DNA of 9,276 nucleotides from a virus (taxonomy: Duplodnaviria; Heunggongvirae; Uroviricota; Caudoviricetes), in the IMG/VR virus record IMGVR_UViG_2737471845_000024, positions 1 to 9,276 of that record, one strand, 5' to 3'. Both the position numbers and the translations under genes were made by a program. Under the pieces are notes generated by a model. It ran no database searches and had not been told where the DNA came from. It saw nothing but the letters and a program-made list of their open reading frames with translations. Shown piece by piece: positions 1-9,276 of the stretch (its first letter is position 1; each line of letters opens with the position of its first letter).

Positions 1-120
1 CTGCGCATTATTCAGCTGGAGGCGGTGCAGGAAGAAATGGCTAACGAATTTCGTGATCTGCTTGTTGAGAAATTCAAAGACAGCAAAGTAGAAACCTTTA
101 TTGGTACTTTCACCGCCTGA
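1..120 (+). CDS. 3' end (last 39 codons + TGA) of a gene that starts left of the window; uncharacterized prophage protein
   Basis: Frame 1 is the only frame open from position 1; it translates [39 protein letters not shown] and stops at TGA 118-120. Frames 2 and 3 hit stops early. By synteny with yfdQ-yfdR of E. coli prophage CPS-53 it could be YfdQ-like, but the fragment is too short to verify. Confidence 0.45.
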
Positions 121-132
121 TTTCATTACTGC

Positions 133-154
133 AAATGCCCCTGCGGGGGCATTT
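133..154 (+). other. GC-rich hairpin just downstream of the partial gene (possible weak terminator or RNA structure)
   Basis: aaatgcccc-tgcg-ggggcattt gives a 9-bp perfect stem with a 4-nt loop. The only T-run is the 3 Ts inside the stem, so it is not a canonical intrinsic terminator. Confidence 0.3.
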
Positions 155-248
155 ATGGAAACGTAATTGACTCAATAATCGCCGGATGGTGAGGGCTTCC
201 TTTTACCAGAATTCAGCGCGGTGCAGCGCATATAACGTGGAGAACAAA

Positions 249-773
249 ATGTCATTTATTAAAACTTTTTCCGGGAAACATTTTTATTATGACAGGATAA
301 ATAAAGACAACATCGATATTAACGATATCGCGGTTTCCCTTTCAAATATCTGTCGCTTTGCCGGCCATCTTTCACACTTCTACAGCGTCGCCCAACATGC
401 GGTGCTTTGCAGCCAGCTGGTACCGCAGGAATTTGCTTTTGAAGCGTTAATGCATGATGCAACAGAAGCGTATTGCCAGGACATCCCGGCTCCACTGAAA
501 CGCCTTCTTCCTGACTATAAACGGATGGAAGAAAAAATAGACGCCGTAATCCGTGAGAAATACGGGTTACCCCCGGTTATGAGTACGCCCGTGAAATATG
601 CCGATCTCATCATGCTGGCAACCGAACGCCGCGATCTCGGGCTTGATGATGGCTCTTTCTGGCCCGTACTGGAAGGTATCCCGGCAACAGAGATGTTCAA
701 AGTTATTCCACTGTCGCCAGGCCATACCTATGGGATGTTTATGGAACGCTTTAAAGAGTTAACTGAGTCGTAA
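249..773 (+). CDS. yfdR: HD-domain phosphohydrolase, YfdR-like (cryptic-prophage 5'-deoxynucleotidase family)
   Basis: ORF-track ORF 186..773. I place the start at ATG 249 (GGAG at 239-242, 6-nt spacer) rather than ATG 186, which has no RBS. The translation MSFIKTFSGKHFYYD... carries HD-domain signatures (...GHLSHFYSVAQH..., ...LMHDATEAY...). I recognise it from memory as very close to E. coli prophage protein YfdR. A hand-counted 100-nt sample (351-450) is ~53% GC. Confidence 0.8.
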   Translation: MSFIKTFSGKHFYYDRINKDNIDINDIAVSLSNICRFAGHLSHFYSVAQHAVLCSQLVPQEFAFEALMHDATEAYCQDIPAPLKRLLPDYKRMEEKIDAVIREKYGLPPVMSTPVKYADLIMLATERRDLGLDDGSFWPVLEGIPATEMFKVIPLSPGHTYGMFMERFKELTES

Positions 774-881
774 AAATCAGCACGTACGAATTCAAACTCT
801 GCCATAAAAGAACATATAAGTAATTTATTAACATATAGATATAGGTTATATTACAAATTGAAAAATTATTGGAGAGCAACA

Positions 882-1748
882 ATGAATCAAAATCCATTCT
901 CATTCTATGACTTTCTTGGATATTTAATACCAGGTGGTTTTTTTATCCTATTAATGTATTTCTGTGGTTTGACATTCGATCTAGATATTGTTATTGACTT
1001 AAGTGAATTGCTCAGAGGTCAAAGTCAAATCTTTGGCATTTTGAACTACGCTTCAATAGTTATTATATCTTATATAGCTGGACATTTTATTTCTATCACG
1101 TCAGCATTTTTTATCGAAAAATACATGAATAAAGAATTAGGATATCCTTCCAAATATCTATTTAAAAAATTGATAGATACCTCAGAAAGCATTTGTAGCC
1201 CATCATGCGATGAGAGAAGCGCTGATAAAAAAACAAAAATAAAGAATCGCATAATCAAATGCGTATTATGCCCAATAATACTATGGGATTTTATAACACA
1301 AAAACTATGTTATTCTCAATCTCTACCATTTCATTTAGCTAATACAACATGGTTAATGATCAAAGAAGGTTATGAGAAAAAGTTCATAACAAATCGCCAA
1401 TTATTACAAGATAAAAACGGACTTGATGATGATCTCTTCAGATTGGCATATCATTATGTTTATGAGTTTTCAAAACAACATCAAACAAAAATTCAAAACT
1501 ATGTTGCATTATATGGTTTTTGCAGAAACATATGTTTAATCTTTATAATTTCATTTTGGGTATCAGTTCCAACCTTTATTTATCGATTATGTACTCATAG
1601 TGATTATCTTTATAGTTTACTTTCAATAATGCTTAGCTTTTTCTTCGTCTATGTTTTCTATGTTGGTTTTGTTAAATTTTATAGAAGATATACTTTAGAA
1701 GTATTAATGGCATTTGCTGTACTTCAAAGTAACGACACTATTCGTTAA
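882..1748 (+). CDS. AT-rich predicted 4-TM inner-membrane protein of unknown function (prophage moron)
   Basis: ATG 882 is preceded by GGAG 871-874 (7-nt spacer); the ORF-track start at 858 is a TTG. A hand-counted sample (901-1000) is ~29% GC, against ~53% in the adjacent yfdR-like gene. Two N-terminal hydrophobic helices (FLGYLIPGGFFILLMYFCGLTF; IFGILNYASIVIISYIAGHFISITSAFFI) and two C-terminal ones (LYGFCRNICLIFIISFWVSVPTFIY; LYSLLSIMLSFFFVYVFYVGFV) flank a ~130-aa basic hydrophilic domain with C-x3-C and C-x2-C pairs. No family recognised. Confidence 0.75.
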   Translation: MNQNPFSFYDFLGYLIPGGFFILLMYFCGLTFDLDIVIDLSELLRGQSQIFGILNYASIVIISYIAGHFISITSAFFIEKYMNKELGYPSKYLFKKLIDTSESICSPSCDERSADKKTKIKNRIIKCVLCPIILWDFITQKLCYSQSLPFHLANTTWLMIKEGYEKKFITNRQLLQDKNGLDDDLFRLAYHYVYEFSKQHQTKIQNYVALYGFCRNICLIFIISFWVSVPTFIYRLCTHSDYLYSLLSIMLSFFFVYVFYVGFVKFYRRYTLEVLMAFAVLQSNDTIR

Positions 1749-1789
1749 TAATGTTGCTCCCGTGTGCAGACGGGATAATGGAGAAACGT

Positions 1790-1996
1790 ATGCTGAACCT
1801 CGATTGTGTTCCTATCTCAACTTATTGCAAAGAAACTGGCGAAACTCCTGAAGCAATAAACAAACGTGTACAGCGCGGTGTTTGGCGTGAAGGTGTTCAG
1901 GTTTTAAAGGTTGAAGGCGTTAAGGAGAGGTGGATTGATCTTAGTGAGGTTGCAAAATGGGCCAGACAAAACTGCTCAAACTACCGCGCGGCGTAA
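1790..1996 (+). CDS. small excisionase-like (Xis/recombination directionality factor-type) DNA-binding protein
   Basis: ORF-track ORF 1751..1996. Preferred start is ATG 1790 (GGAG 1780-1783, 6-nt spacer), giving 68 aa: MLNLDCVPISTYCKETGETPEAINKRVQRGVWREGVQVLKVEGVKERW... It is small and basic, sits directly upstream of the integrase gene and overlaps it by 40 nt, as lambda xis-int does. The call rests on context and general resemblance, not on a proven motif. Confidence 0.55.
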   Translation: MLNLDCVPISTYCKETGETPEAINKRVQRGVWREGVQVLKVEGVKERWIDLSEVAKWARQNCSNYRAA

Positions 1997-3129
1997 CAAT
2001 CAGGAAACACCGCCAGGGAGAAACGATCAATATAACTTTCACCTACAAAGGAGTTAGATGTCGTGAGCCGCTTTCCAATCTGGAAGTAACACCAAAGAAC
2101 ATTAAATACGCCGAGCGTACACTCGGCGAAATCCATAATAAGATCGAAAGGGGAACATTCATTTATGCAGAATATTTTCCCCGTTCTGCTCGTTTGAAAA
2201 TTTTTGGTAATGCTGCTGCAGGCAAAACGGTAAAGATGTACCTGGACGAATATCTTGAAATCTGCGAAACAAGAAAACTTTCACCCTCTACGATTGGTGG
2301 CTATAAAAAATGCCGTAGTGCGTTAGCCTCACTTCACATTTGCCCTGCAAGTGAATTAACACCAGCAACCCTGAAAGCGTGGATTCAAAATCAGAAAACG
2401 ACCTTAAAAACAATTCGCAACCAGTTATCTTTCCTGCGGTCAGCACTTGATGAAGCCGTGACCGATGGGGTACTTCAAATTAACCCCGTATCGTTAGTAA
2501 CAGCTTCGCGCTACCAAAGTGATAAGTCAGAAGCAGAAAGCAGCTACGTAGTTGATCCGCTATCACCAGCAGAAGTTGATGCATTACTAGCAGCAGCCGG
2601 AAACAAACAATGGGAAAATCTGTTCCGGTTCGCTATACATACAGGCCTGCGTAGTTCTGAATTATGTGCCCTTCGATGGCGTGATATCGACTTTGTTGGA
2701 AAAACTGCCCATGTCCAGAGCGCAAGTGTTGTCGGTGTTATCAAAGGGACAAAGACAAAAGCAGGTACTCGGAAAGTTGAACTGACAGAAGAGGCAATGT
2801 TGGCGCTGATAAATCAGAAGCCATTTACATTCATGAAGGATACTACTGTCTTTGAAGATCCAAAGACCAATAAGCCTTGGGCAAGTGCTGATGCAATCAG
2901 GAAAAAAGCATGGGTGCCAACATTGCGAAAAGCAGGTATTCGTTACAGAAATCCATATCAAACTAGGCATACATTCGCCACCCGCCATATCAGCCGGGGA
3001 GCAAACCTGTTTTGGCTTGCAGCTCAAATGGGGCATAAAGGGCCGGAAATGTTATTTCGTCATTATGGTTCATATTTAAAGGAATATGACGGTAATACGA
3101 CCAGCAATATCACAAAAAAAGCCACTTAA
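1957..3129 (+). CDS. int: phage tyrosine recombinase / integrase (lambda-type, 390 aa)
   Basis: ATG 1957 with GAGG at 1946-1949. Tyrosine-recombinase catalytic signatures are visible in the translation: ...HTGLRSSELCALRWRDID... (box I Arg) and ...HTFATRHISRGANLFWLAAQMGHKGPEMLFRHYGSY... (H-x-x-R, conserved His, catalytic Tyr). The N-terminus KHRQGETINITFTYKGVRCRE looks like an arm-binding domain. Confidence 0.92.
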   Translation: MGQTKLLKLPRGVTIRKHRQGETINITFTYKGVRCREPLSNLEVTPKNIKYAERTLGEIHNKIERGTFIYAEYFPRSARLKIFGNAAAGKTVKMYLDEYLEICETRKLSPSTIGGYKKCRSALASLHICPASELTPATLKAWIQNQKTTLKTIRNQLSFLRSALDEAVTDGVLQINPVSLVTASRYQSDKSEAESSYVVDPLSPAEVDALLAAAGNKQWENLFRFAIHTGLRSSELCALRWRDIDFVGKTAHVQSASVVGVIKGTKTKAGTRKVELTEEAMLALINQKPFTFMKDTTVFEDPKTNKPWASADAIRKKAWVPTLRKAGIRYRNPYQTRHTFATRHISRGANLFWLAAQMGHKGPEMLFRHYGSYLKEYDGNTTSNITKKAT

Positions 3130-3140
3130 GTGGCTTTATC
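3114..3140. terminator. bidirectional intrinsic terminator between convergent gene ends
   Basis: A-run 3114-3120, then a perfect 20-nt palindrome aaagccacttaagtggcttt (3118-3137) that contains the int stop codon TAA (3127-3129), then T-rich sequence. On the minus strand the hairpin is followed by TTTTTTT. It lies between the int stop (3129) and the stop of the reverse 127-aa gene (3143). Confidence 0.5.
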
Positions 3141-3142
3141 AA

Positions 3143-3526
3143 TTAGGAGGCTCTCGATTTAAGCATTTCCGTACACTTAGCAAAGAGCCTCTCAGTTGTT
3201 AGAATCGCAACTTCAGACTGTTTAGAAGTGACCGATTGATCAAGTCGATAGTCTGCAACAATCCTCTGAGCTTTAAGTTGACTCAGGATAAAACTAATCC
3301 CTTTTAGATATCTAGCTTCATATACTTCACTTCCTCTTGAAGCATCGCCCTGCAAATAATTGATTAGCCCCTGATGACTGTCTTTCGGCCCGTTTACCAT
3401 ACAAGGCAAGACATGATGGTAAGCGCCATAGTAGGATCTTGCTATAGCATTTCGATAGCCGATTTCGTCATTACGTTGATGACAGTCTTTTGCAAAACCG
3501 AGAAAATCTTGACTATTAACCGGCAT
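3143..3526 (-). CDS. 127-aa helical protein, second gene of a two-gene cargo operon; tentatively HEPN-like fold
   Basis: ORF-track ORF 3143..3532 begins at a TTG. The ATG at 3526-3524 is preceded by GGAGGG (6-nt spacer) and overlaps the upstream gene's stop by 11 nt, indicating translational coupling. Translation: MPVNSQDFLGFAKDCHQRNDEIGYRNAIARSYYGAYHHV...LKAQRIVADYRLD... The AIARSYYGAYHH helix (R-x6-H) and a later R-x3-DY segment recall HEPN-family profiles; this is from memory and unverified. Confidence 0.65.
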   Translation of the reverse strand: MPVNSQDFLGFAKDCHQRNDEIGYRNAIARSYYGAYHHVLPCMVNGPKDSHQGLINYLQGDASRGSEVYEARYLKGISFILSQLKAQRIVADYRLDQSVTSKQSEVAILTTERLFAKCTEMLKSRAS

Positions 3527-4331
3527 GTGCAACCCTCCGGGTAATCAGACCTAATTCGGAGATAGCATTCTGCTCAATATGTGTGTCTTTACATTCAAAC
3601 CAAACAGCAAAATCTTTACCGACTAAACAATCGTGCTCAGCCATTGAAAAAGCAAGCTCAATATTCATATCAGCGATTTGTTCAGCATCAGAAGACTTTG
3701 TCATGAATACAATCGCATTCACTTTCTCTTCCGAAATATTATAAAAACGCATTCCCGAAAGATGAACCTTCTGAGAATCCATGACATTGGCTACATTATT
3801 GAAAATAAGTTCATATTCTAAACCAGAAAGATCGGCACGTTGCTTAAAGGATTCGACCTGGGAAACAACTTCATCAAGATTGTTGTCCATTTTTTCAGGC
3901 TCCTTATCTCCGAACAATTTAGAGTATGACTGGAAATACTTCTCCGCCAACGCCATCTTCCCCATAAAGAGGGAGTTTTCATAAGCTTGAAGATAAATAA
4001 ACGGGGATATGAAGCTTTCAGCAAGCTTAATGCTTGTTTCAAAGCTTTTCTTCAACGTACCGTAATCTGACAAGAAAACAAGAAAATTCTTTGCAACAAC
4101 CTCATTATGGCATACCTGCAAGGAACGCTCAAAGAAGCCTATCGCCTCATTCACTTGGCCATGTGCACCATAGACCAACGCTAAAAGATAGTCCTCAGAG
4201 ACAGGATCTCTAAGTGCTTCAATCTCACGTAACATCCTTCTAAAGCTAAAGTCATCAATCCTCACTCCATCTTTGAGGTATTTAGTTAGCCGCGCGCTAA
4301 TAACTGATGCTTTTTTTGCTGGCTGCAACAT
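3516..4331 (-). CDS. 271-aa helical protein with TPR-like N-terminal segment, first gene of the two-gene cargo operon; function unknown
   Basis: ATG 4331 is the only possible start (AAGG 6-7 nt upstream; in-frame stop upstream at 4446-4448 with no alternative start codon). TPR-like stretch ...DYLLALVYGAHGQVNEAIGFFERSL... No nucleotidyltransferase (GS...DxD), P-loop or nuclease motif seen. A hand-counted sample (3601-3700) is ~38% GC. Confidence 0.7.
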   Translation of the reverse strand: MLQPAKKASVISARLTKYLKDGVRIDDFSFRRMLREIEALRDPVSEDYLLALVYGAHGQVNEAIGFFERSLQVCHNEVVAKNFLVFLSDYGTLKKSFETSIKLAESFISPFIYLQAYENSLFMGKMALAEKYFQSYSKLFGDKEPEKMDNNLDEVVSQVESFKQRADLSGLEYELIFNNVANVMDSQKVHLSGMRFYNISEEKVNAIVFMTKSSDAEQIADMNIELAFSMAEHDCLVGKDFAVWFECKDTHIEQNAISELGLITRRVAHAG

Positions 4332-4456
4332 TAAAAACCTTATCTTACAAATAGTTGGTAATGATGTTGAATTATTTTTTGTTCTTTATGGCTAATAAGA
4401 TTACATGAAGGGACAACTTCTGACCACCTTAGAAAACACTCACTTTAGTAACAAGA

Positions 4457-4474
4457 GTCAATAATATTGTTGAC
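4457..4474. promoter_or_regulatory. 18-bp imperfect dyad (16/18) gtcaataatattgttgac, candidate operator in the intergenic region upstream of the reverse operon
   Basis: Its reverse complement is gtcaacaatattattgac, with a perfectly palindromic aatatt centre. It overlaps -35-like hexamers on both strands (TTGACA on plus, TTGACT on minus), but no convincing -10 partner was found. Confidence 0.25.
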
Positions 4475-4525
4475 AAATCACAAAAAAACAAACTTATCCA
4501 AAACAATCTGGTTTATCACAAAGCC

Positions 4526-4548
4526 TCTGTGCATAAATCTGTGCATAA
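4526..4548. repeat. tandem direct repeat tctgtgcataa x2 (12-bp period) in the phage arm next to the att core
   Basis: tctgtgcataa occurs at 4526-4536 and again at 4538-4548. It lies ~220 bp left of the att core in an A/T-tract-rich region and could be integrase arm-type sites or a regulator site. Confidence 0.3.
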
Positions 4549-4757
4549 CATCATTTTTACACACATTTTTTATAAAAATATTTTTTAGCAAAAAATGCTA
4601 TCTATCTCCGAAACTGCAACCACAAACCATTAATTCCAAATGAAACTATTTTAAAATAAATAGTAAGACAGTAACAGGACAGAAAAAGTTCCGCAAAAGA
4701 GCCGCTTGTAAAATCAACAATATTTGGCTATTTAAATTCAATGAATTACATAACTAT

Positions 4758-4789
4758 GGACACGGGTTCAACTCCCGCCAGCTCCACCA
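4758..4789 (+). repeat. partial copy of the tmRNA (ssrA) 3' terminus: attachment-site core at the junction of two integrative elements
   Basis: ggacacgggttcaactcccgccagctccacca has a T-loop (TTCAACT), the acceptor 3' strand and CCA. It matches my recollection of the E. coli ssrA 3' end GGACGCGGGTTCAACTCCCGCCAGCTCCACCA with one mismatch (A at 4762, weakening the T-stem). The ~330 nt upstream are AT-rich and show no tmRNA features such as the tag-reading frame, so this is not a functional gene copy. Confidence 0.7.
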
Positions 4790-4836
4790 AAATTCTCCAT
4801 CGGTGATTACCAGAGTCATCCGATGAAGTCCTAAGA

Positions 4837-4868
4837 GCCCGCACGGCGCAAGCCCTGCGGGCTTTTTT
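4837..4868 (+). terminator. rho-independent terminator downstream of the ssrA-derived core
   Basis: gcccgca-N12-tgcgggc stem (alternative inner stem agccc/gggct) followed by TTTTTT at 4863-4868. Confidence 0.55.
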
Positions 4869-4920
4869 GTGCCCTCAATTTGTCCCGCGAAGTCCGAAGA
4901 AAACTAATTAAATCCGATCC

Positions 4921-4976
4921 TTTTAGGCACCTTGTTAGGCACCTCATAAAGCTTTATTGTTTTTTGAGGTGCCTAA
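4921..4976. promoter_or_regulatory. repeated TTAGGCACC(TCA) motif, two direct copies plus one inverted, just upstream of the IntA-like integrase gene
   Basis: ttaggcacc at 4923-4931 and 4935-4943 (direct); the 12-mer ttaggcacctca at 4935-4946 recurs as its reverse complement tgaggtgcctaa at 4965-4976, separated by an 18-bp AT-rich spacer. All copies lie within 75 bp of the int start codon (4995). Confidence 0.4.
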
Positions 4977-4994: not shown

Positions 4995-6236
4995 ATGGCA
5001 AGACAAACCAAACCTCTATCCGTTAAAGAAATAGAATCAGCCAAACCCAAGGAGGCGGACTACGTTCTCTATGATGGCGATGGCCTTGAGCTACTCATTA
5101 AATCCAGCGGGAGTAAAATCTGGCAGTTTCGCTACATTCGCCCTGTCACCAAGAAACGAGCAAAGAAGAGCATAGGCTCCTACCCGTCAGTTACCCTTGC
5201 CGATGCCAGAAACTACCGTGCAGAGTCCCGCTCACTACTGGCTAAACAGATCGATCCGCAGGAACATCAGCAAGAACAATTGCGCAGTTCGCTGGAAGCC
5301 AAAACCAACACTTTCCAACTCGTAGCTGAACGTTGGTGGAATGTGAAGAAAGCCAGTGTGACAGAGGACTATGCGGAAGATATCTGGCGCTCTCTTGAAA
5401 GAGACGTCTTTCCTGCGATTGGCGACGTTAGCGTTACAGATATTAAAGCTCATACACTGGTTCAGGCCGTACAACCGGTTCAGGCCAGAGGAGCACTGGA
5501 AACTGTTCGTCGCCTGTGCCAACGTATTAATGAGGTCATGATCTATGCCCAGAACACAGGGCTGATTGATGCTGTTCCCAGCGTTAATATCGGTAAAGCC
5601 TTCGAGAAGCCTCAGAAAAAGAACATGCCCAGCATTCGACCGGATCAGCTACCTCAGTTAATGCAGACGATGCGAACAGCCAGCATTAGCCTTTCCACAC
5701 GCTGCCTGTTCATGTGGCAACTTCTTACTATTACCCGCCCTGCCGAAGCGGCTGAAGCTCTCTGGGAAGAGGTAGACATAGAAGCGCGAGAGTGGAAGAT
5801 TCCTGCAGCACGCATGAAAATGAACCGCGACCATACTGTTCCATTGTCAGATGAAGCAATTGCGATACTAGAGATGATGAAGCCGTTAAGTGGAAATCGA
5901 GAATTTATCTTTCCCAGCCGCATCAAGCCAAACCAGCCGATGAACAGTCAGACCGTAAACGCATCGCTAAAACGCGCAGGTTTTGGTGGGGTGCTCGTTT
6001 CACACGGCCTGCGATCTATCGCCAGTACAGCCCTTAATGAGCAGGGATTTCCACCTGATGTTATTGAGGCTGCACTTGCTCATGTGGATAAGAATGAGGT
6101 TCGTCGTGCGTATAACCGTAGTGATTATCTTGAGCAGCGACGGCCTATGATGCAGTGGTGGGCTGATTTTGTGATGGCTGCAGATCACGGTAGTATGATT
6201 GAAGGAGGGATAAAGGCAATGCGGTTAGTTGGATGA
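4995..6236 (+). CDS. intA: P4-family tyrosine integrase, IntA (CP4-57)-like, 413 aa
   Basis: N-terminus MARQTKPLSVKEIESAKPKEADYVLYDGDGLELLIKSSGSKIWQFRY... is the arm-binding domain typical of P4-type integrases. Catalytic signatures: ...TITRPAEAAEALWEEVD... and ...HGLRSIASTAL...ALAHVDKNEVRRAYNRSDY (H-x-x-R, His, Tyr). Length and position directly downstream of the ssrA att core match E. coli CP4-57 IntA as I recall it. RBS is weak (GGAAA). Confidence 0.93.
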   Translation: MARQTKPLSVKEIESAKPKEADYVLYDGDGLELLIKSSGSKIWQFRYIRPVTKKRAKKSIGSYPSVTLADARNYRAESRSLLAKQIDPQEHQQEQLRSSLEAKTNTFQLVAERWWNVKKASVTEDYAEDIWRSLERDVFPAIGDVSVTDIKAHTLVQAVQPVQARGALETVRRLCQRINEVMIYAQNTGLIDAVPSVNIGKAFEKPQKKNMPSIRPDQLPQLMQTMRTASISLSTRCLFMWQLLTITRPAEAAEALWEEVDIEAREWKIPAARMKMNRDHTVPLSDEAIAILEMMKPLSGNREFIFPSRIKPNQPMNSQTVNASLKRAGFGGVLVSHGLRSIASTALNEQGFPPDVIEAALAHVDKNEVRRAYNRSDYLEQRRPMMQWWADFVMAADHGSMIEGGIKAMRLVG

Positions 6237-6316
6237 CATGTCGTAGCTAAAACCCGTTCTGTTTTTGGGTAGATTAACCTGAAGGTCTGCAATTTTAAAT
6301 GACGCTGAAAGAAGTT

Positions 6317-6345
6317 AAACCCTGCTCTTAAGCAGGGTTTTTATG
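6317..6345. terminator. bidirectional intrinsic terminator between intA-like gene and the large reverse ORF
   Basis: aaaccctgct-ctta-agcagggttt is a perfect 10-bp stem with a 4-nt loop, followed by a T-rich tract on the plus strand (tttttatgatttatt). It lies between the convergent stops at 6236 (+) and 6375 (-). Confidence 0.55.
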
Positions 6346-6374
6346 ATTTATTCTAATTTTGGTTTTGAATCTTT

Positions 6375-9276
6375 CTATTTTAAATCAGCCTTTGCGGCTC
6401 GAATATCTGCGTTTTTTGCTGAGTATTCCCATTCGTCAGCGATTCTAAATAGCATTGCAGAAGTACGGACGCAGTGGGGCATTGAATTTGCCCATTCTCG
6501 GTACTGCTCAGCTAATATCCTTTCTTGGTTTCCACCTTCGTAACGCATACGAGCAAATACCCCCCTTTTATTGTACCTACCAATTTGTATACCTTGCTCT
6601 AACTCATCAGAAGATAATATTTCAATGATGTGCCGAATTGCTTCATGTGGCCAGGAATTATCTACTGAGCTATTAGGGGCATGTGCCAGAATTTTTCCTA
6701 TTACATGATCAGTGATTTCTTGGCGATGATGCAATTTTGCTAAATGGCGTACATTCTCACACCAATCTTCAAGTTTATCTTGATCAATTTCATTGTCTAT
6801 CTGCCCTGGTAGTATTCGTAATTTTTCAAGTAATCTGTATATAGAAGTAGCTCTTTTAACTTCCAACTCCGATGGTTCTGTTTGTTCATCTTCGTCACTA
6901 CGATATACAATACATATTGCTTCTATAAAAACCTCTGGCTTTTTCATCATTAGACGATGCAGGATAAGTGGCTCATCGCTATCCGGAAAACAAGGCAAGT
7001 AGGTCATTTCTTTAAATGCCAAATCTGTTTCAGAAACATCGTTACGTTGTTTGAGTTCATCAAAAACTTTTTTTACATAGTACGATAGCATTGTATCAAA
7101 TTGGATATCCTGGCTATTTATTTCTTTAACGACTATATCTAGAAGATATAAAAGTGTTGTAGATGGAATCTCAGAAAGGCGTTGATTTGCTGATATAATA
7201 GCAGCAAGACCCCGGCCCCTTTCTATATATTTATCCATAAGAACAAATAAATCCGAAGTTTTACCCATCATTGCAATGGGTTGTTTTTGCAACCAATATT
7301 TTTCGTTGATGTTATCTTCAAACCCTTCAATAATGCTCCATATCTCTTGTGAGTCTCTTAACGATGCTAAGATTTTCCCAGCCCTATCAGGGGTAATTTT
7401 AAACTGTTTAAAATACACTTTTATTTTATTAAGCCATTCAGCACCAAAGCATTCAACACCATATTGCATTAACAACCCACAAACTTCATCAATATTTTTT
7501 TTGTTGTTAATAAGCATTACAAACAAATCATTTAATTTTTCTTCATCCAACGAGAGTGCTGATATATGCCTTGCTGCAATAAAAACATTATTAACTTGTT
7601 GAAAAAGGTCTTTCACCCCAGACAAACCTAAAGTAAAGTATATTTCCCTAAGTTTTTCACTTCGCATTTCTGCGACAGAAGAAAAAATTCCGCCAGCATT
7701 TTCAATTGACTCTTCAATATCAGAATCCCAATCATTGAAAATCCATAAACTGGCTCTAACCATGTCAATTGGTTTATAATTATCAAGTATTTTCGCTATT
7801 TTTTCCATAGACTCAAATTTAAATGCCCAGTTCGCATCTGAATATTTTTTATGGCGAGAATACTCATGACGCAAAGCCTCCCATACGATGAACTGATCCT
7901 CTTCAGTTTGTTGAGAAAGGCAAAGTTCAAGATGAGAAAGTGTTTCATCTATTGCATTCTCAGGGAATGAGCTTAAATGAGAGATTAGGATTTCCCATCT
8001 TGTTGGGAGTATACCTGCAAGTTTAATTGCTTCTTGGATAATAAAGATTTGCCCCTCCCAAACAACGCCCCACGTTAGTTTTTCTACATCTTTATCCGAC
8101 TCTCTGAACTTCATTTTTTGGTTTTGATCAGAGGTATCATGGGAGCGAGGAAGGAGATTTTGTAACAAACTCCACCCAATACTAGGAACAATAGTGATAA
8201 TTTTTTTTATAATTGCATTTCTAACTTTTACTGGTGCCCATGTATTAGGAGACCATGCCAGAAAAATGGTTCTTAAACTATTAAGAGGGCGATCTGAGTA
8301 AGTTCCTCCGGGATCTATTACAGCGAGTTTTGCAAGACAGATTGCAGCGCGTAATAGATATGTTTGTTCCCAAGCCAAGGCTTCCAATGCCCATTTTAAT
8401 CCATGATAATGACTTCGAGGAGTTAACAGCCCTTTATCTTCATTGAATATTGGAGCAATCATTTCCCCATTGCCCTTAAGCAATTGCTCAAGGGCATCAA
8501 GGAAAGGGCCAGGGGCAGCTTCTGCCAGCAGCGGAAGTTGATCTCGCAAACTAACAAATAGTCGATGGTCGTTAGCAAGTCCCGGAATACTCTGAACTAT
8601 TTTGTTAACAAAATCTTGGGGTGTCATACCAGTAACCCGGAATTCGGCCTGTTCATGTAATATTGCCATATGTAGCAAAACTGTTGTCATTCCATTACGT
8701 AACCACGAGCTATAAGACGTTTTAATACCATTGTCAGGTACAAACAGATCTTCGGCCTTTGGTGGTTCAGGAATATAGGAAAAAACCTCTCTTACGGCCT
8801 TCTCAAAACGCTCCAGGTGTTCTTCACCCAGCAAATAGCCTAAATGTACAAAAGCATCTACCGACGAACGCAATGACCAAATATCATCTACTCGGTCAAT
8901 TGGAGAATCGCGGCGCTTTGTTAATAGCCTTAATGGATTTTCAACTTGAGAATAGTCTGTATAGCCAGCTAGTTGCTTGAGAATTAACTTATCTTTCTCT
9001 GAACATGTACTCCATGCACCAGCTAATAAAGCAGGGAGCAACTCAGGGCTGTCTTTCCATTCAGGTGATTCAGCCGTGCTACTTGATATCTGGCGAGCCA
9101 AAACAGACAAACTTCGGCCACACTGCCGCGCTATTTGATAACTTTTATCTGAATCAAACCCCATAGATTCAAGAGCCTTACCTAAAGATATACTATCTGG
9201 GCGGATCAGAAGTTCGTGATCAGTTCGTGTTTCATCGGCTCCGGCACTTACTACTGTGTGAAGTGGTTTACTGAAT
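6375..9276 (-). CDS. large uncharacterized protein (>966 aa visible, N-terminus beyond right window edge); predicted mostly alpha-helical; candidate cargo/defence protein
   Basis: The reverse-strand frame is open from the window edge to TAG at 6375-6377. The ORF-track start (Met at 9164) is internal: the 37 codons upstream (9165-9275) are open in the same frame (...FSKPLHTVVSAGADETRTDHELLIRPDSISLGKALES-MGFDSD...). No P-loop, helicase, nuclease or methyltransferase signature was recognised by eye. Base composition is heterogeneous (see findings). Confidence 0.88.
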   Translation of the reverse strand, partial: FSKPLHTVVSAGADETRTDHELLIRPDSISLGKALESMGFDSDKSYQIARQCGRSLSVLARQISSSTAESPEWKDSPELLPALLAGAWSTCSEKDKLILKQLAGYTDYSQVENPLRLLTKRRDSPIDRVDDIWSLRSSVDAFVHLGYLLGEEHLERFEKAVREVFSYIPEPPKAEDLFVPDNGIKTSYSSWLRNGMTTVLLHMAILHEQAEFRVTGMTPQDFVNKIVQSIPGLANDHRLFVSLRDQLPLLAEAAPGPFLDALEQLLKGNGEMIAPIFNEDKGLLTPRSHYHGLKWALEALAWEQTYLLRAAICLAKLAVIDPGGTYSDRPLNSLRTIFLAWSPNTWAPVKVRNAIIKKIITIVPSIGWSLLQNLLPRSHDTSDQNQKMKFRESDKDVEKLTWGVVWEGQIFIIQEAIKLAGILPTRWEILISHLSSFPENAIDETLSHLELCLSQQTEEDQFIVWEALRHEYSRHKKYSDANWAFKFESMEKIAKILDNYKPIDMVRASLWIFNDWDSDIEESIENAGGIFSSVAEMRSEKLREIYFTLGLSGVKDLFQQVNNVFIAARHISALSLDEEKLNDLFVMLINNKKNIDEVCGLLMQYGVECFGAEWLNKIKVYFKQFKITPDRAGKILASLRDSQEIWSIIEGFEDNINEKYWLQKQPIAMMGKTSDLFVLMDKYIERGRGLAAIISANQRLSEIPSTTLLYLLDIVVKEINSQDIQFDTMLSYYVKKVFDELKQRNDVSETDLAFKEMTYLPCFPDSDEPLILHRLMMKKPEVFIEAICIVYRSDEDEQTEPSELEVKRATSIYRLLEKLRILPGQIDNEIDQDKLEDWCENVRHLAKLHHRQEITDHVIGKILAHAPNSSVDNSWPHEAIRHIIEILSSDELEQGIQIGRYNKRGVFARMRYEGGNQERILAEQYREWANSMPHCVRTSAMLFRIADEWEYSAKNADIRAAKADLK

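What the first reader, a model, noticed from the sequence alone, without database searches (positions are those of the whole stretch)
4921..4976. Direct plus inverted copies of a 9-12-bp motif (TTAGGCACC[TCA]) immediately upstream of intA-like gene
Three copies of one motif sit in the 75 bp before the integrase start: two direct copies 12 bp apart and one inverted copy separated by an 18-bp AT-rich spacer, forming a 12-bp inverted-repeat pair. This layout is typical of a binding array for a dimeric regulator or for integrase arm-type sites, and it probably controls int expression or excision. It is unexplained by any coding feature.
Basis: seen in the sequence. Interest (0 to 1): 0.4.

Follow-up and report, generated by a model that had tools for sequence, protein, structure and literature searches.

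The report
Integrase arm-type sites upstream of int
The three repeats are most likely the docking ("arm-type") sites that a P4-family integrase uses to assemble its recombination complex and probably to repress its own gene; this is a well-known kind of element, seen here in a sequence variant that changes together with the integrase's DNA-binding domain.

Summary
TTAGGCACC occurs exactly three times in the window: 4923-4931 (+), 4935-4943 (+) and 4968-4976 (-). These lie 18-72 bp upstream of a P4-type integrase gene (4995-6236) and 133 bp downstream of an ssrA 3' fragment, the att core.

The array is best read as the P' arm-type site set of a P4-family attachment site.
- Phage P4's GenBank record annotates "attP arm sequence repeats" in the same layout: two direct copies at 12-bp period, core, two direct copies at 12-bp period, one inverted copy at the int start.
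- An intact relative of the island (E. coli PS10-3) has five exact copies in 45 kb: three at attL and two about 55 nt from the attR core.
- Across 81 loci, arrays are uniformly GGCACC or uniformly GGCCCA.
- The only 13 integrase residues that separate the two types all lie in the N-terminal arm-binding domain.
- Near-identical AlpA proteins occur with both motif types.

A predicted int promoter overlaps copy 2 and copy 3, so Int autorepression is likely, as in P4 and KplE1. The window's own island has lost attR, so it is probably an immobile remnant.

This is an ordinary member of a known kind. Its one mildly new aspect is the exchangeable motif/domain specificity cassette.

The parts
4758..4789 (+). 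3' fragment of ssrA (tmRNA), the att core copy. It serves as the left junction core for the P4-type island and the right junction core of the upstream lambdoid prophage.
   Evidence: Rfam gives a partial tmRNA match at 4742-4789. ARAGORN finds no complete gene. The fragment is identical to the K-12 ssrA 3' end apart from one base. The core string TTCAACTCCCGCCAGCTCCACCA is at 4767-4789.
4833..4866 (+). Terminator-like hairpin plus T-run inside the P' arm. It is the ssrA terminator carried by the island and is conserved in all relatives.
   Evidence: Inverted repeat I2. Terminator scan hit at 4850-4864. Near-invariant in 78 attL sequences.
4923..4931 (+). Arm-type site copy 1 (TTAGGCACC), the first of two direct P' sites. 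It lies upstream of and adjacent to the predicted -35.
   Evidence: Homologous to the P4 arm repeat at 3965-3954.
4935..4943 (+). Arm-type site copy 2 (TTAGGCACC), 12 bp after copy 1. Its first three bases are part of the predicted -35 hexamer.
   Evidence: Homologous to the P4 arm repeat at 3953-3942.
4968..4976 (-). Arm-type site copy 3 (TTAGGCACC on the minus strand), inverted. It lies 18 bp before the int ATG, over the predicted transcription start.
   Evidence: Homologous to the inverted P4 arm repeat at 3915-3926.
4932..4960 (+). Predicted sigma-70 int promoter: -35 TTGTTA (4932-4937), 17-nt spacer, -10 TATTGT (4955-4960). This is an inference.
   Evidence: The window scores 8 of 12, below the scan threshold. 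The homologous K-12 position, TTGATA-17-TATTGT, is called by the scan at 9 of 12. A TAnnnT hexamer is kept at a fixed position in all variants.
4995..6236 (+). P4-family (IntA/CP4-57-like) tyrosine integrase, 413 aa. Residues 8-95 (nt 5016-5279) form the arm-type DNA-binding domain proposed to read the repeats.
   Evidence: Pfam hits to Arm-DNA-bind_3, Phage_int_M and Phage_integrase. PDB arm-binding domains 3JU0 and 3JTZ match residues 10-106. 85% identical to K-12 IntA and 34% to P4 Int, with the HxxR and Y motifs aligned.

Best explanation
The three TTAGGCACC copies are most likely the P'-arm arm-type binding sites of the adjacent P4-family integrase. In an intact element the attachment site reads: two direct copies, about 55 nt, the core (ssrA 3' end), 133 nt, two direct copies, 23 nt, one inverted copy, 18 nt, then int. 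By inference from the lambda, P4 and KplE1 paradigms, the integrase is heterobivalent. Its N-terminal domain (residues about 8-95) would bind these 9-mers while its core-binding and catalytic domains bind the ssrA core. Bridging arm and core would build the intasome needed for integration and, with the AlpA-type directionality factor, for excision. The predicted int promoter has its -35 overlapping copy 2 and its start site under copy 3. Occupancy by Int would therefore also repress int transcription (negative autoregulation). The motif and the arm-binding domain come in matched, exchangeable variants: GGCACC in the window, GGCCCA in K-12 CP4-57, GGGGGCA in P4. In this window the island has lost its right end (attR arm), so here the array can at most act as an autoregulatory operator of a stranded integrase gene. 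What is shown: the presence, conservation and geometry of the array, the copies on both arms, the covariation with the N-terminal domain, and the homology of layout with P4. What is inferred: physical binding, the promoter, and repression.
For: (1) Layout matches P4. NC_001609 annotates 'attP arm sequence repeat' features. In int orientation they read: two direct 12-mers (12-bp period), 53 nt, core, 112 nt, two direct 12-mers (12-bp period), 15 nt, one inverted copy at the int start. P4 Int is a 34% identical homolog.
(2) Copies on both arms, physically unlinked. E. coli PS10-3 carries an intact 23-kb island whose Int is 98% identical. It has exactly five exact TTAGGCACC copies in 45 kb: three at attL and two (12-bp period) 55 nt upstream of the attR core. 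The same is seen in Citrobacter amalonaticus (L006 and L062).
(3) Concerted variation. K-12 CP4-57 has TTAGGCCCA / ATAGGCCCA / inverted TTAGGCCCA at the same positions, and TTAGGACCA-aca-ATGGGACCA at attR. KFu015 shows the same. Of 81 arrays, 75 are complete and all are homotypic.
(4) Covariation with the arm-binding domain. In 70 full-length integrases, the only 13 columns that perfectly separate GGCACC loci from GGCCCA loci are residues 4, 9, 10, 11, 14, 24, 32, 48, 54, 56, 58, 60 and 74. All lie at or within the N-terminal domain (domain limits). The N-domains of the two types are about 72% identical, against about 90% for the rest of the protein. The recombinant L044 has a B-type N-domain and a B-type array on an otherwise A-like body.
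(5) The motif does not follow the RDF. AlpA proteins differing at 2 of 64 residues occur with both motif types (L072 vs L043; L031 vs L044).
(6) Promoter overlap. The scan calls TTGATA-17-TATTGT at the homologous K-12 position.
(7) Literature. For KplE1, arm-type P' sites overlap the intS promoter inside attL, and IntS and TorI repress it. [quoted passage not shown] The DUF4102 / Arm-DNA-bind_3 domain is the arm-binding domain of island integrases (PMC8138268).
Against: There are no binding or expression data for this element; everything is comparative. The array lies 20-70 bp from the codons of the N-terminal domain, so their covariation could partly reflect linkage. The attR copies are the only unlinked evidence, and they come from few independent islands. 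Type B attR sites differ from the attL sites by one or two bases (GGACCA vs GGCCCA), so recognition is not strictly one sequence. The window's own island has no attR copies, so a recombination role cannot be exercised here. The window promoter scores only 8 of 12 and was not called by the scan. No IHF-like site was found between core and array.
Confidence: 0.85

Rival explanations
1. The repeats are binding sites for the island's AlpA/Vis-type recombination directionality factor and transcription regulator. That protein would activate or repress int and bend the arm for excision.
For: AlpA overproduction induces CP4-57 excision (PMC10107115). RDFs typically bind direct repeats in the arm next to int, and in KplE1 the TorI sites interleave with the arm sites. 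K-12 and PS10-3 AlpA differ (78% identity) in parallel with the motif.
Against: Nearly identical AlpA proteins (2 of 64 residues different) occur with GGACCC-unrelated, opposite motif types: L072 (B) vs L043 (A), and L031 (A) vs L044 (B). All discriminating integrase residues lie in the arm-binding domain. Copies sit on both arms in the layout that P4's record annotates as arm repeats. Other sequences in the arm (GAAGTCC repeats, AAATCCG) are conserved across both motif types and in P4, and are better RDF or IHF candidates.
Confidence: 0.07
2. The inverted pair (copy 2 and copy 3) acts as a nucleic-acid hairpin, in the int leader RNA or as a DNA cruciform, that controls int transcription or translation. 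Copy 1 would provide an alternative pairing partner.
For: The RNA fold has a 12+5-bp stem, centroid -25.6 kcal/mol, z = -3.4 against shuffles. The inner flank of the stem changes compensatorily between types (TCA/TGA vs ACG/CGT). Copy 1 is also perfectly complementary to copy 3 (I4). According to Panis et al., P4 Vis was proposed to act on int mRNA.
Against: The two attR copies, about 23 kb away, and copy 1 carry the same motif and covary, which a hairpin does not require. Single substitutions in the stem flanks are not compensated (L025, L033, L049). The predicted -10 lies in the loop and the start site in the 3' arm, so the int mRNA would not contain the 5' arm. No T-run follows the stem, and no terminator is called there. 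Any inverted pair of protein sites forms such a stem as a by-product.
Confidence: 0.05
3. The array is an operator for a separate dimeric repressor (CI/Cro-like or host-encoded) that controls int, unrelated to recombination.
For: A 12-bp perfect inverted repeat with an AT-rich spacer overlapping a promoter is typical of dimeric repressor operators.
Against: Cargo genes downstream of int differ completely between islands that share the array, so no regulator gene is consistently linked. The motif tracks the integrase N-domain. Copies also lie at attR, far from any promoter for int.
Confidence: 0.03

Closest known systems
Phage P4 attP arm sequence repeats and P4 Int (annotated in NC_001609; Int/Vis autoregulation of int by Piazzolla et al. 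2006, as cited in PMC2951348)
   Same: The order, number and orientation of sites are the same: two direct copies, core, two direct copies, one inverted copy, int. The tandem copies have the same 12-bp period. The distances are similar: 53 vs about 55 nt from the P pair to the core, and 15 vs 17-18 nt between the 12-mers of the last direct and the inverted copy. The integrase family is the same (Arm-DNA-bind_3 N-domain, 34% identity). The core is the 3' end of a tRNA-like gene. An AlpA/Vis-type RDF is present in intact relatives.
   Different: The motif is TTGGGGGCA in P4 and TTAGGCACC here. The target is leuX tRNA in P4 and ssrA here. The core-to-P' distance is 112 vs 133 nt. The predicted P4 promoter has its -10 over the first direct repeat, whereas here the -35 overlaps the second. 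P4 has a sixth annotated copy inside int. The window element is a cargo island remnant, not a satellite phage.
E. coli K-12 cryptic prophage CP4-57 (IntA/SlpA, AlpA) at ssrA
   Same: The locus is orthologous. The sequence from the ssrA 3' end to just before the array is identical apart from 3 bases. The three-copy architecture and spacings are the same, and the integrase is 85% identical. AlpA-induced excision is documented (PMC10107115).
   Different: All three copies read (T/A)TAGGCCCA instead of TTAGGCACC. The N-terminal domain is only about 72% identical. K-12 retains attR with two arm copies, whereas the window's island has lost attR.
KplE1 (CPS-53) prophage attL / intS promoter with IntS P' arm sites and TorI sites (Panis et al. 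2010, PMC2951348)
   Same: The tRNA-int gene order and orientation are the same. The int promoter lies inside attL and is overlapped by arm-type sites. Its experimentally shown negative autoregulation is the model for the regulation inferred here.
   Different: The arm motif is different (it contains TAAA). The RDF sites there are mapped and interleaved with the arm sites. The target is argW. No experimental data exist for the element studied here.
Lambda Int arm-type sites P1, P2 and P'1-P'3
   Same: The principle is the same: a heterobivalent integrase, five arm sites split 2 + 3 over the two arms, and bridging of arm and core (general knowledge; PMC2951348 introduction).
   Different: The arm-binding domain family is unrelated at the Pfam level. 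Orientations and spacings differ. Lambda int is not transcribed from a promoter inside att.

Membership tests
Arm-type (P/P') sites of a heterobivalent P4-family tyrosine integrase | The adjacent integrase carries an N-terminal arm-type DNA-binding domain. | tested here: met
   Arm-DNA-bind_3 matches residues 8-95 at E = 4e-21. The PDB arm-binding domains 3JU0 and 3JTZ match residues 10-106.
Arm-type (P/P') sites of a heterobivalent P4-family tyrosine integrase | A short repeated motif, different from the core sequence, lies on the element side within about 50-200 bp of the core. | tested here: met
   Three exact 9-mers lie 133-186 bp downstream of the ssrA core fragment, with none elsewhere in the window.
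Arm-type (P/P') sites of a heterobivalent P4-family tyrosine integrase | Copies of the same motif occur on both arms of attP, that is, at both attL and attR of the integrated element. | tested here: met
   Met in intact relatives: PS10-3 has 3 + 2 exact copies and no others in 45 kb, and the same holds for C. amalonaticus L006/L062 and for type B in K-12 and KFu015. Not met in the window's own island, whose right end is missing.
Arm-type (P/P') sites of a heterobivalent P4-family tyrosine integrase | The motif specificity follows the integrase arm-binding domain. | tested here: met
   All 13 of 13 perfectly discriminating columns are residues 4-74. The N-domain is bimodal and tracks the motif, including in the recombinant L044. 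Caveat: the array and the N-domain codons are physically linked.
Arm-type (P/P') sites of a heterobivalent P4-family tyrosine integrase | The site layout is the same as in the characterised family member, phage P4. | tested here: met
   The annotated P4 attP arm repeats have the same order, orientation, 12-bp period and similar distances.
Arm-type (P/P') sites of a heterobivalent P4-family tyrosine integrase | The integrase N-domain physically binds the sites, and the sites are required for recombination. | not testable with these tools
   This needs EMSA or footprinting, and att-site mutagenesis in an intact island.
Self-regulated int gene with promoter inside attL (KplE1 / P4 paradigm) | The int promoter lies between core and int and is overlapped by arm-type sites. 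| tested here: inconclusive
   The homologous K-12 promoter TTGATA-17-TATTGT is called by the scan. The window version, TTGTTA-17-TATTGT, scores 8 of 12 and was not called. The hexamer positions are conserved in 80 loci. No transcript data were found.
Self-regulated int gene with promoter inside attL (KplE1 / P4 paradigm) | Int (and the RDF) repress int transcription. | not testable with these tools
   This is known for KplE1 and P4 only (PMC2951348).
RDF (AlpA/Vis/TorI) binding sites | The site sequence follows the RDF allele. | tested here: not met
   AlpA proteins differing at 2 of 64 residues are paired with different motif types.
Intrinsic terminator / regulatory RNA hairpin | A stable stem is followed by a U-run, or the structure is supported by covariation that pairing alone explains. 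| tested here: not met
   The stem is stable, but no T-run follows and no terminator is called. Non-paired copies (copy 1, attR) covary too. Single stem changes are uncompensated. No Rfam family matches the array.

The most novel reading that the evidence does not exclude
The arm-site array and the roughly 75-residue arm-binding domain may form an exchangeable specificity cassette. At least four motif types were seen in the same layout: GGCACC, GGCCCA, GGTATAC and GGGACCC. Such a cassette could make islands that compete for the same ssrA core mutually orthogonal. Tandem neighbours could then be excised independently rather than cross-recombined. In the few tandem arrays seen, neighbours were always heterotypic: A|B in C. 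amalonaticus, C|A in Erwinia, and B|D in E. coli KFu015. The only B|B case (Cedecea L067) has the downstream array deleted. The 13 discriminating residues would be the specificity code of the DUF4102 arm-binding domain.
Probability: 0.35. Interest if true: 0.45.

Novelty: new member of a known kind. Interest (0 to 1): 0.22.

Why it matters
For annotation, it explains an unannotated intergenic repeat. It also gives a simple rule for finding both ends of CP4-57-like islands at ssrA: look for the five 9-mers. By that rule the island in this window is an immobile remnant, with int and the P' arm kept but the attR arm lost. For mechanism, the two natural motif/domain pairs offer a ready-made experiment on how the DUF4102 arm-binding domain reads DNA. 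They differ at 13 candidate residues on a body that is about 90% identical. These islands carry anti-phage defence cargo (for example Avs3 in PS10-3, and AbpAB and RnlAB in K-12). Knowing which arrays are complete therefore predicts which defence islands can still move.

Tried and rejected
- An Rfam search of the whole window found nothing at the array. It gave only a partial tmRNA 3' hit and a sub-threshold IsrM hit (32 vs 376 bits), both over the shared ssrA terminator region.
- The promoter scan of the window found no site at its 9-of-12 threshold. The promoter call therefore rests on the K-12 homolog and on conservation.
- An IHF consensus scan found no site between core and array, and the window-wide count equals chance.
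- The hairpin reading was considered and rejected as the primary function, for the reasons given under rivals.
- The AlpA reading was tested and rejected.
- A single-sequence AlphaFold model of the N-domain had only moderate confidence (pLDDT 70). It was used only to place residues 24, 32 and 48 in the three predicted strands. No fold search was run.
- A search for the window island's own attR found none in YF-1 or M19 relatives, where IS3 truncates the island.
- Three papers could not be read because they are not held: Kirby et al. 1994 (PMC205313), Szwagierczak et al. 2009 (PMC2797237) and Williams 2003 (PMC142792). I therefore cannot say whether the CP4-57 repeats were already described there.
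- Two scripts were faulty and gave no result: one search was incomplete and one search had a bad regular expression. One search replaced.

Full report
**Context.** The window is E. coli chromosome at the ssrA (tmRNA) integration hotspot. Positions 1-4330 hold the end of a lambdoid prophage, including an integrase with an Arm-DNA-bind_2 domain at 1957-3129. ARAGORN finds no complete tmRNA gene. Rfam and alignment show only the last ~32 nt of ssrA at 4758-4789; this is an att core copy left at the prophage's right junction. After it come a conserved terminator hairpin (4833-4866), the repeats, and a 413-aa P4-family integrase gene (4995-6236). That integrase has Arm-DNA-bind_3, Phage_int_M and Phage_integrase domains and is 85% identical to K-12 IntA of CP4-57. 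From 4760 to the window's end the sequence is nearly identical to the island that sits directly next to ssrA in E. coli M19.

**Observation.** TTAGGCACC occurs at 4923-4931 (+), 4935-4943 (+) and 4968-4976 (-), and nowhere else in the window even with one mismatch allowed. It is the only cluster of three or more copies of any 9-mer within 60 bp in the window. Only 5 of 1000 dinucleotide-preserving shuffles produce any such cluster.

**Conservation and concerted change.** K-12 CP4-57 is identical apart from 3 bases from the ssrA 3' end to just before the array. At the same three positions it carries TTAGGCCCA, ATAGGCCCA and an inverted TTAGGCCCA. I fetched 80 loci from different Enterobacterales species that encode 82-98% identical integrases.
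- 75 of the 81 arrays (window included) are complete.
- Every array is homotypic: 47 are GGCACC and 28 are GGCCCA.
- Spacing between the direct copies is 12 bp in 74 of 75.
- The gap to the inverted copy is 23 nt in 73 of 75.
- The six incomplete or variant arrays are also homotypic by inspection.

Three sites that change together while their geometry stays fixed point to one sequence-specific reader.

1. *Covariation with the integrase.* In an alignment of 70 full-length integrases, the only 13 columns that perfectly separate GGCACC loci from GGCCCA loci are residues 4, 9, 10, 11, 14, 24, 32, 48, 54, 56, 58, 60 and 74. All lie in or at the edge of the N-terminal arm-binding domain (Pfam residues 8-95; the solved arm-binding domains of the HAI7 and HPI island integrases, 3JU0 and 3JTZ, match residues 10-106).
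   - The N-domains of the two types are about 72% identical, while the core-binding and catalytic domains are about 90% identical.
   - Recombinants exist. L044 has a B-type N-domain and a B-type array on a body closer to type A.
   - Morganellaceae carry both types on equally distant bodies.
   - A moderate-confidence model places residues 24, 32 and 48 in the three predicted beta-strands.
   - The array lies only 20-70 bp from these codons, so linkage could contribute to this result.

2. *Unlinked evidence from the other end of the element.*
   - E. coli PS10-3 has an intact 23-kb island between ssrA and ypjA whose integrase is 98% identical to the window's.
   - In 45 kb around that island there are exactly five exact TTAGGCACC copies: three upstream of int, and two (12-bp period) 55 nt upstream of the degenerate attR core.
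   - The same attR pair lies 23 kb from a type A int in Citrobacter amalonaticus, directly upstream of a second, type B island (L006 and L062).
   - Type B islands in K-12 and KFu015 have TTAGGACCA-aca-ATGGGACCA at the equivalent attR position.
   - A Cedecea attR has TTAGGCCCA-tcg-ATAGGCCCA.

3. *The AlpA regulator.* AlpA-family genes lie about 1 kb downstream of int in 21 of the loci. AlpA proteins that differ at only 2 of 64 residues are paired with opposite motif types (L072 B vs L043 A; L031 A vs L044 B). AlpA therefore does not determine the variable positions.

4. *Comparison with phage P4.* P4's GenBank record (NC_001609) annotates "attP arm sequence repeat" features. In int orientation they read: two direct 12-mers (GTGGGGGCACAA, AAGGGGGCATAT), 53 nt, the 20-bp core, 112 nt, two direct 12-mers (TTGGGGGCATAA, TTGGGGGCATCT), 15 nt, and one inverted copy (ATGTGCCCCCAA) at the int start. 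This is the same order, orientation and 12-bp period as here. P4 Int is a 34% identical homolog with aligned HxxR and Y motifs.

**Mechanism.** The array is best read as the P'-arm set of arm-type sites of a P4-family attachment site. By inference from the general model of heterobivalent integrases (PMC2951348 introduction; PMC8138268), the N-domain binds these sites while the rest of the protein binds the core. Intasome assembly in this model needs both arms.

The array also covers the probable int promoter. In K-12 the scan calls TTGATA-17-TATTGT. The window has TTGTTA (4932-4937), a 17-nt spacer and TATTGT (4955-4960); this scores 8 of 12 and was not called. A TAnnnT hexamer is kept at the same place in all variants. 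Copy 2 shares three bases with the -35, and copy 3 lies over the expected start site. In KplE1 the intS promoter lies inside attL, is overlapped by P' sites, and is repressed by IntS and TorI. [quoted passage not shown] I therefore expect negative autoregulation here, but this step is inferred.

**State of the element in the window.** No attR copies exist in the window or in relatives with the same island. In those relatives IS3 truncates the right end. The island is therefore probably unable to excise. The int ORF and all three sites are intact, apart from a unique extra T between the -10 and copy 3.

**Rivals.** The inverted pair would fold into a stable RNA stem (centroid -25.6 kcal/mol, z = -3.4). 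Its inner flank changes compensatorily between types. However, several points count against a primary hairpin function:
- Copy 1 and the distant attR copies covary too.
- Single stem changes are uncompensated (L025, L033, L049).
- No T-run follows the stem.
- The predicted start site lies inside the stem.

The stem is best seen as a by-product of inverted protein sites. A separate dimeric repressor is unlikely because cargo genes differ completely among islands that share the array.

**Comparison with the known, and novelty.** This is a member of a well-known kind, the arm-type sites of a tyrosine integrase. It matches the P4 layout in particular and carries a motif variant (GGCACC) for which I found no description in the papers available. 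I could not read Kirby et al. 1994, Szwagierczak et al. 2009 or Williams 2003. The K-12 version may therefore already be described.

The mildly new aspect is the matched exchange of array and arm-binding domain. Further motif types occur in the same layout: GGTATAC in an Erwinia attR, and GGGACCC in a second KFu015 island whose N-domain is 49% identical. Tandem neighbours at ssrA were heterotypic in all three intact cases seen. This hints at orthogonality, but the sample is far too small to conclude anything.

**Verdict.** The feature is ordinary in kind, of low to moderate interest (0.22), and a new member of a known kind.

Noticed in passing
window 4526-4536 and 4538-4548: Two exact tandem copies of TCTGTGCATAA with a 12-bp period lie about 220 nt upstream of the ssrA core fragment, at the right end of the upstream lambdoid prophage. 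They are candidate arm-type sites of that prophage's own integrase (1957-3129, Arm-DNA-bind_2).
   Followed up: no
window 4825-4836, 4889-4900 and 4905-4918: The direct repeat GAAGTCC(T/G)AAGA flanks the terminator hairpin, and the block AACTAATTAAATCCGA lies just before the array. Both are highly conserved across both motif types. Both resemble P4 attP sequences at equivalent places (CATCCGAGAAAGTCC, GAAATCCGGA). They may be sites for AlpA/Vis or a host bending protein.
   Followed up: partly
window 4780-4868: There is a partial, far sub-threshold Rfam hit to the Salmonella sRNA IsrM (32 bits vs gathering score 376). Only the terminator end aligns, so it reflects the shared ssrA-downstream terminator carried by such islands and is not an IsrM gene.
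   Followed up: partly
window 4960-4965: The T-run between the predicted -10 and copy 3 has six T's. The window is the only one of 75 arrays with a 24-nt gap instead of 23. The effect on site phasing or promoter function is unknown.
   Followed up: no
window 1-4790 with 4995-9276 (tandem elements at ssrA): Two unrelated integrative elements share one ssrA core. A lambdoid prophage was inserted between the true ssrA and the older P4-type island, leaving the island next to a 32-nt ssrA fragment that carries one base change (GGACACGGG vs GGACGCGGG).
   Followed up: partly
L087 20230-20285 (E. coli KFu015) and the attR upstream of L038 (Erwinia sp. P6884): Further motif types occur in the same layout. 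KFu015 has ATGGCACCC-tga-ATGGGACCC ... GGGTCCCAA immediately before the ATG of an IS3-truncated integrase whose N-domain is 49% identical to the window's. The Erwinia attR has TTGGTATAC-gc-TTAGGTATACC.
   Followed up: partly
L042 and L067, upstream of int: Photorhabdus viridis (L042) has lost one direct copy. Cedecea neteri (L067) has lost almost the whole array and promoter region, although its integrase ORF is full length. L067 sits directly after a type B attR, so it is a homotypic tandem.
   Followed up: no
window 6375-9164 (-): This long ORF has no Pfam domain. In E. coli M19 the same gene is annotated as a 1248-aa hypothetical protein that runs beyond the window's end.
   Followed up: no
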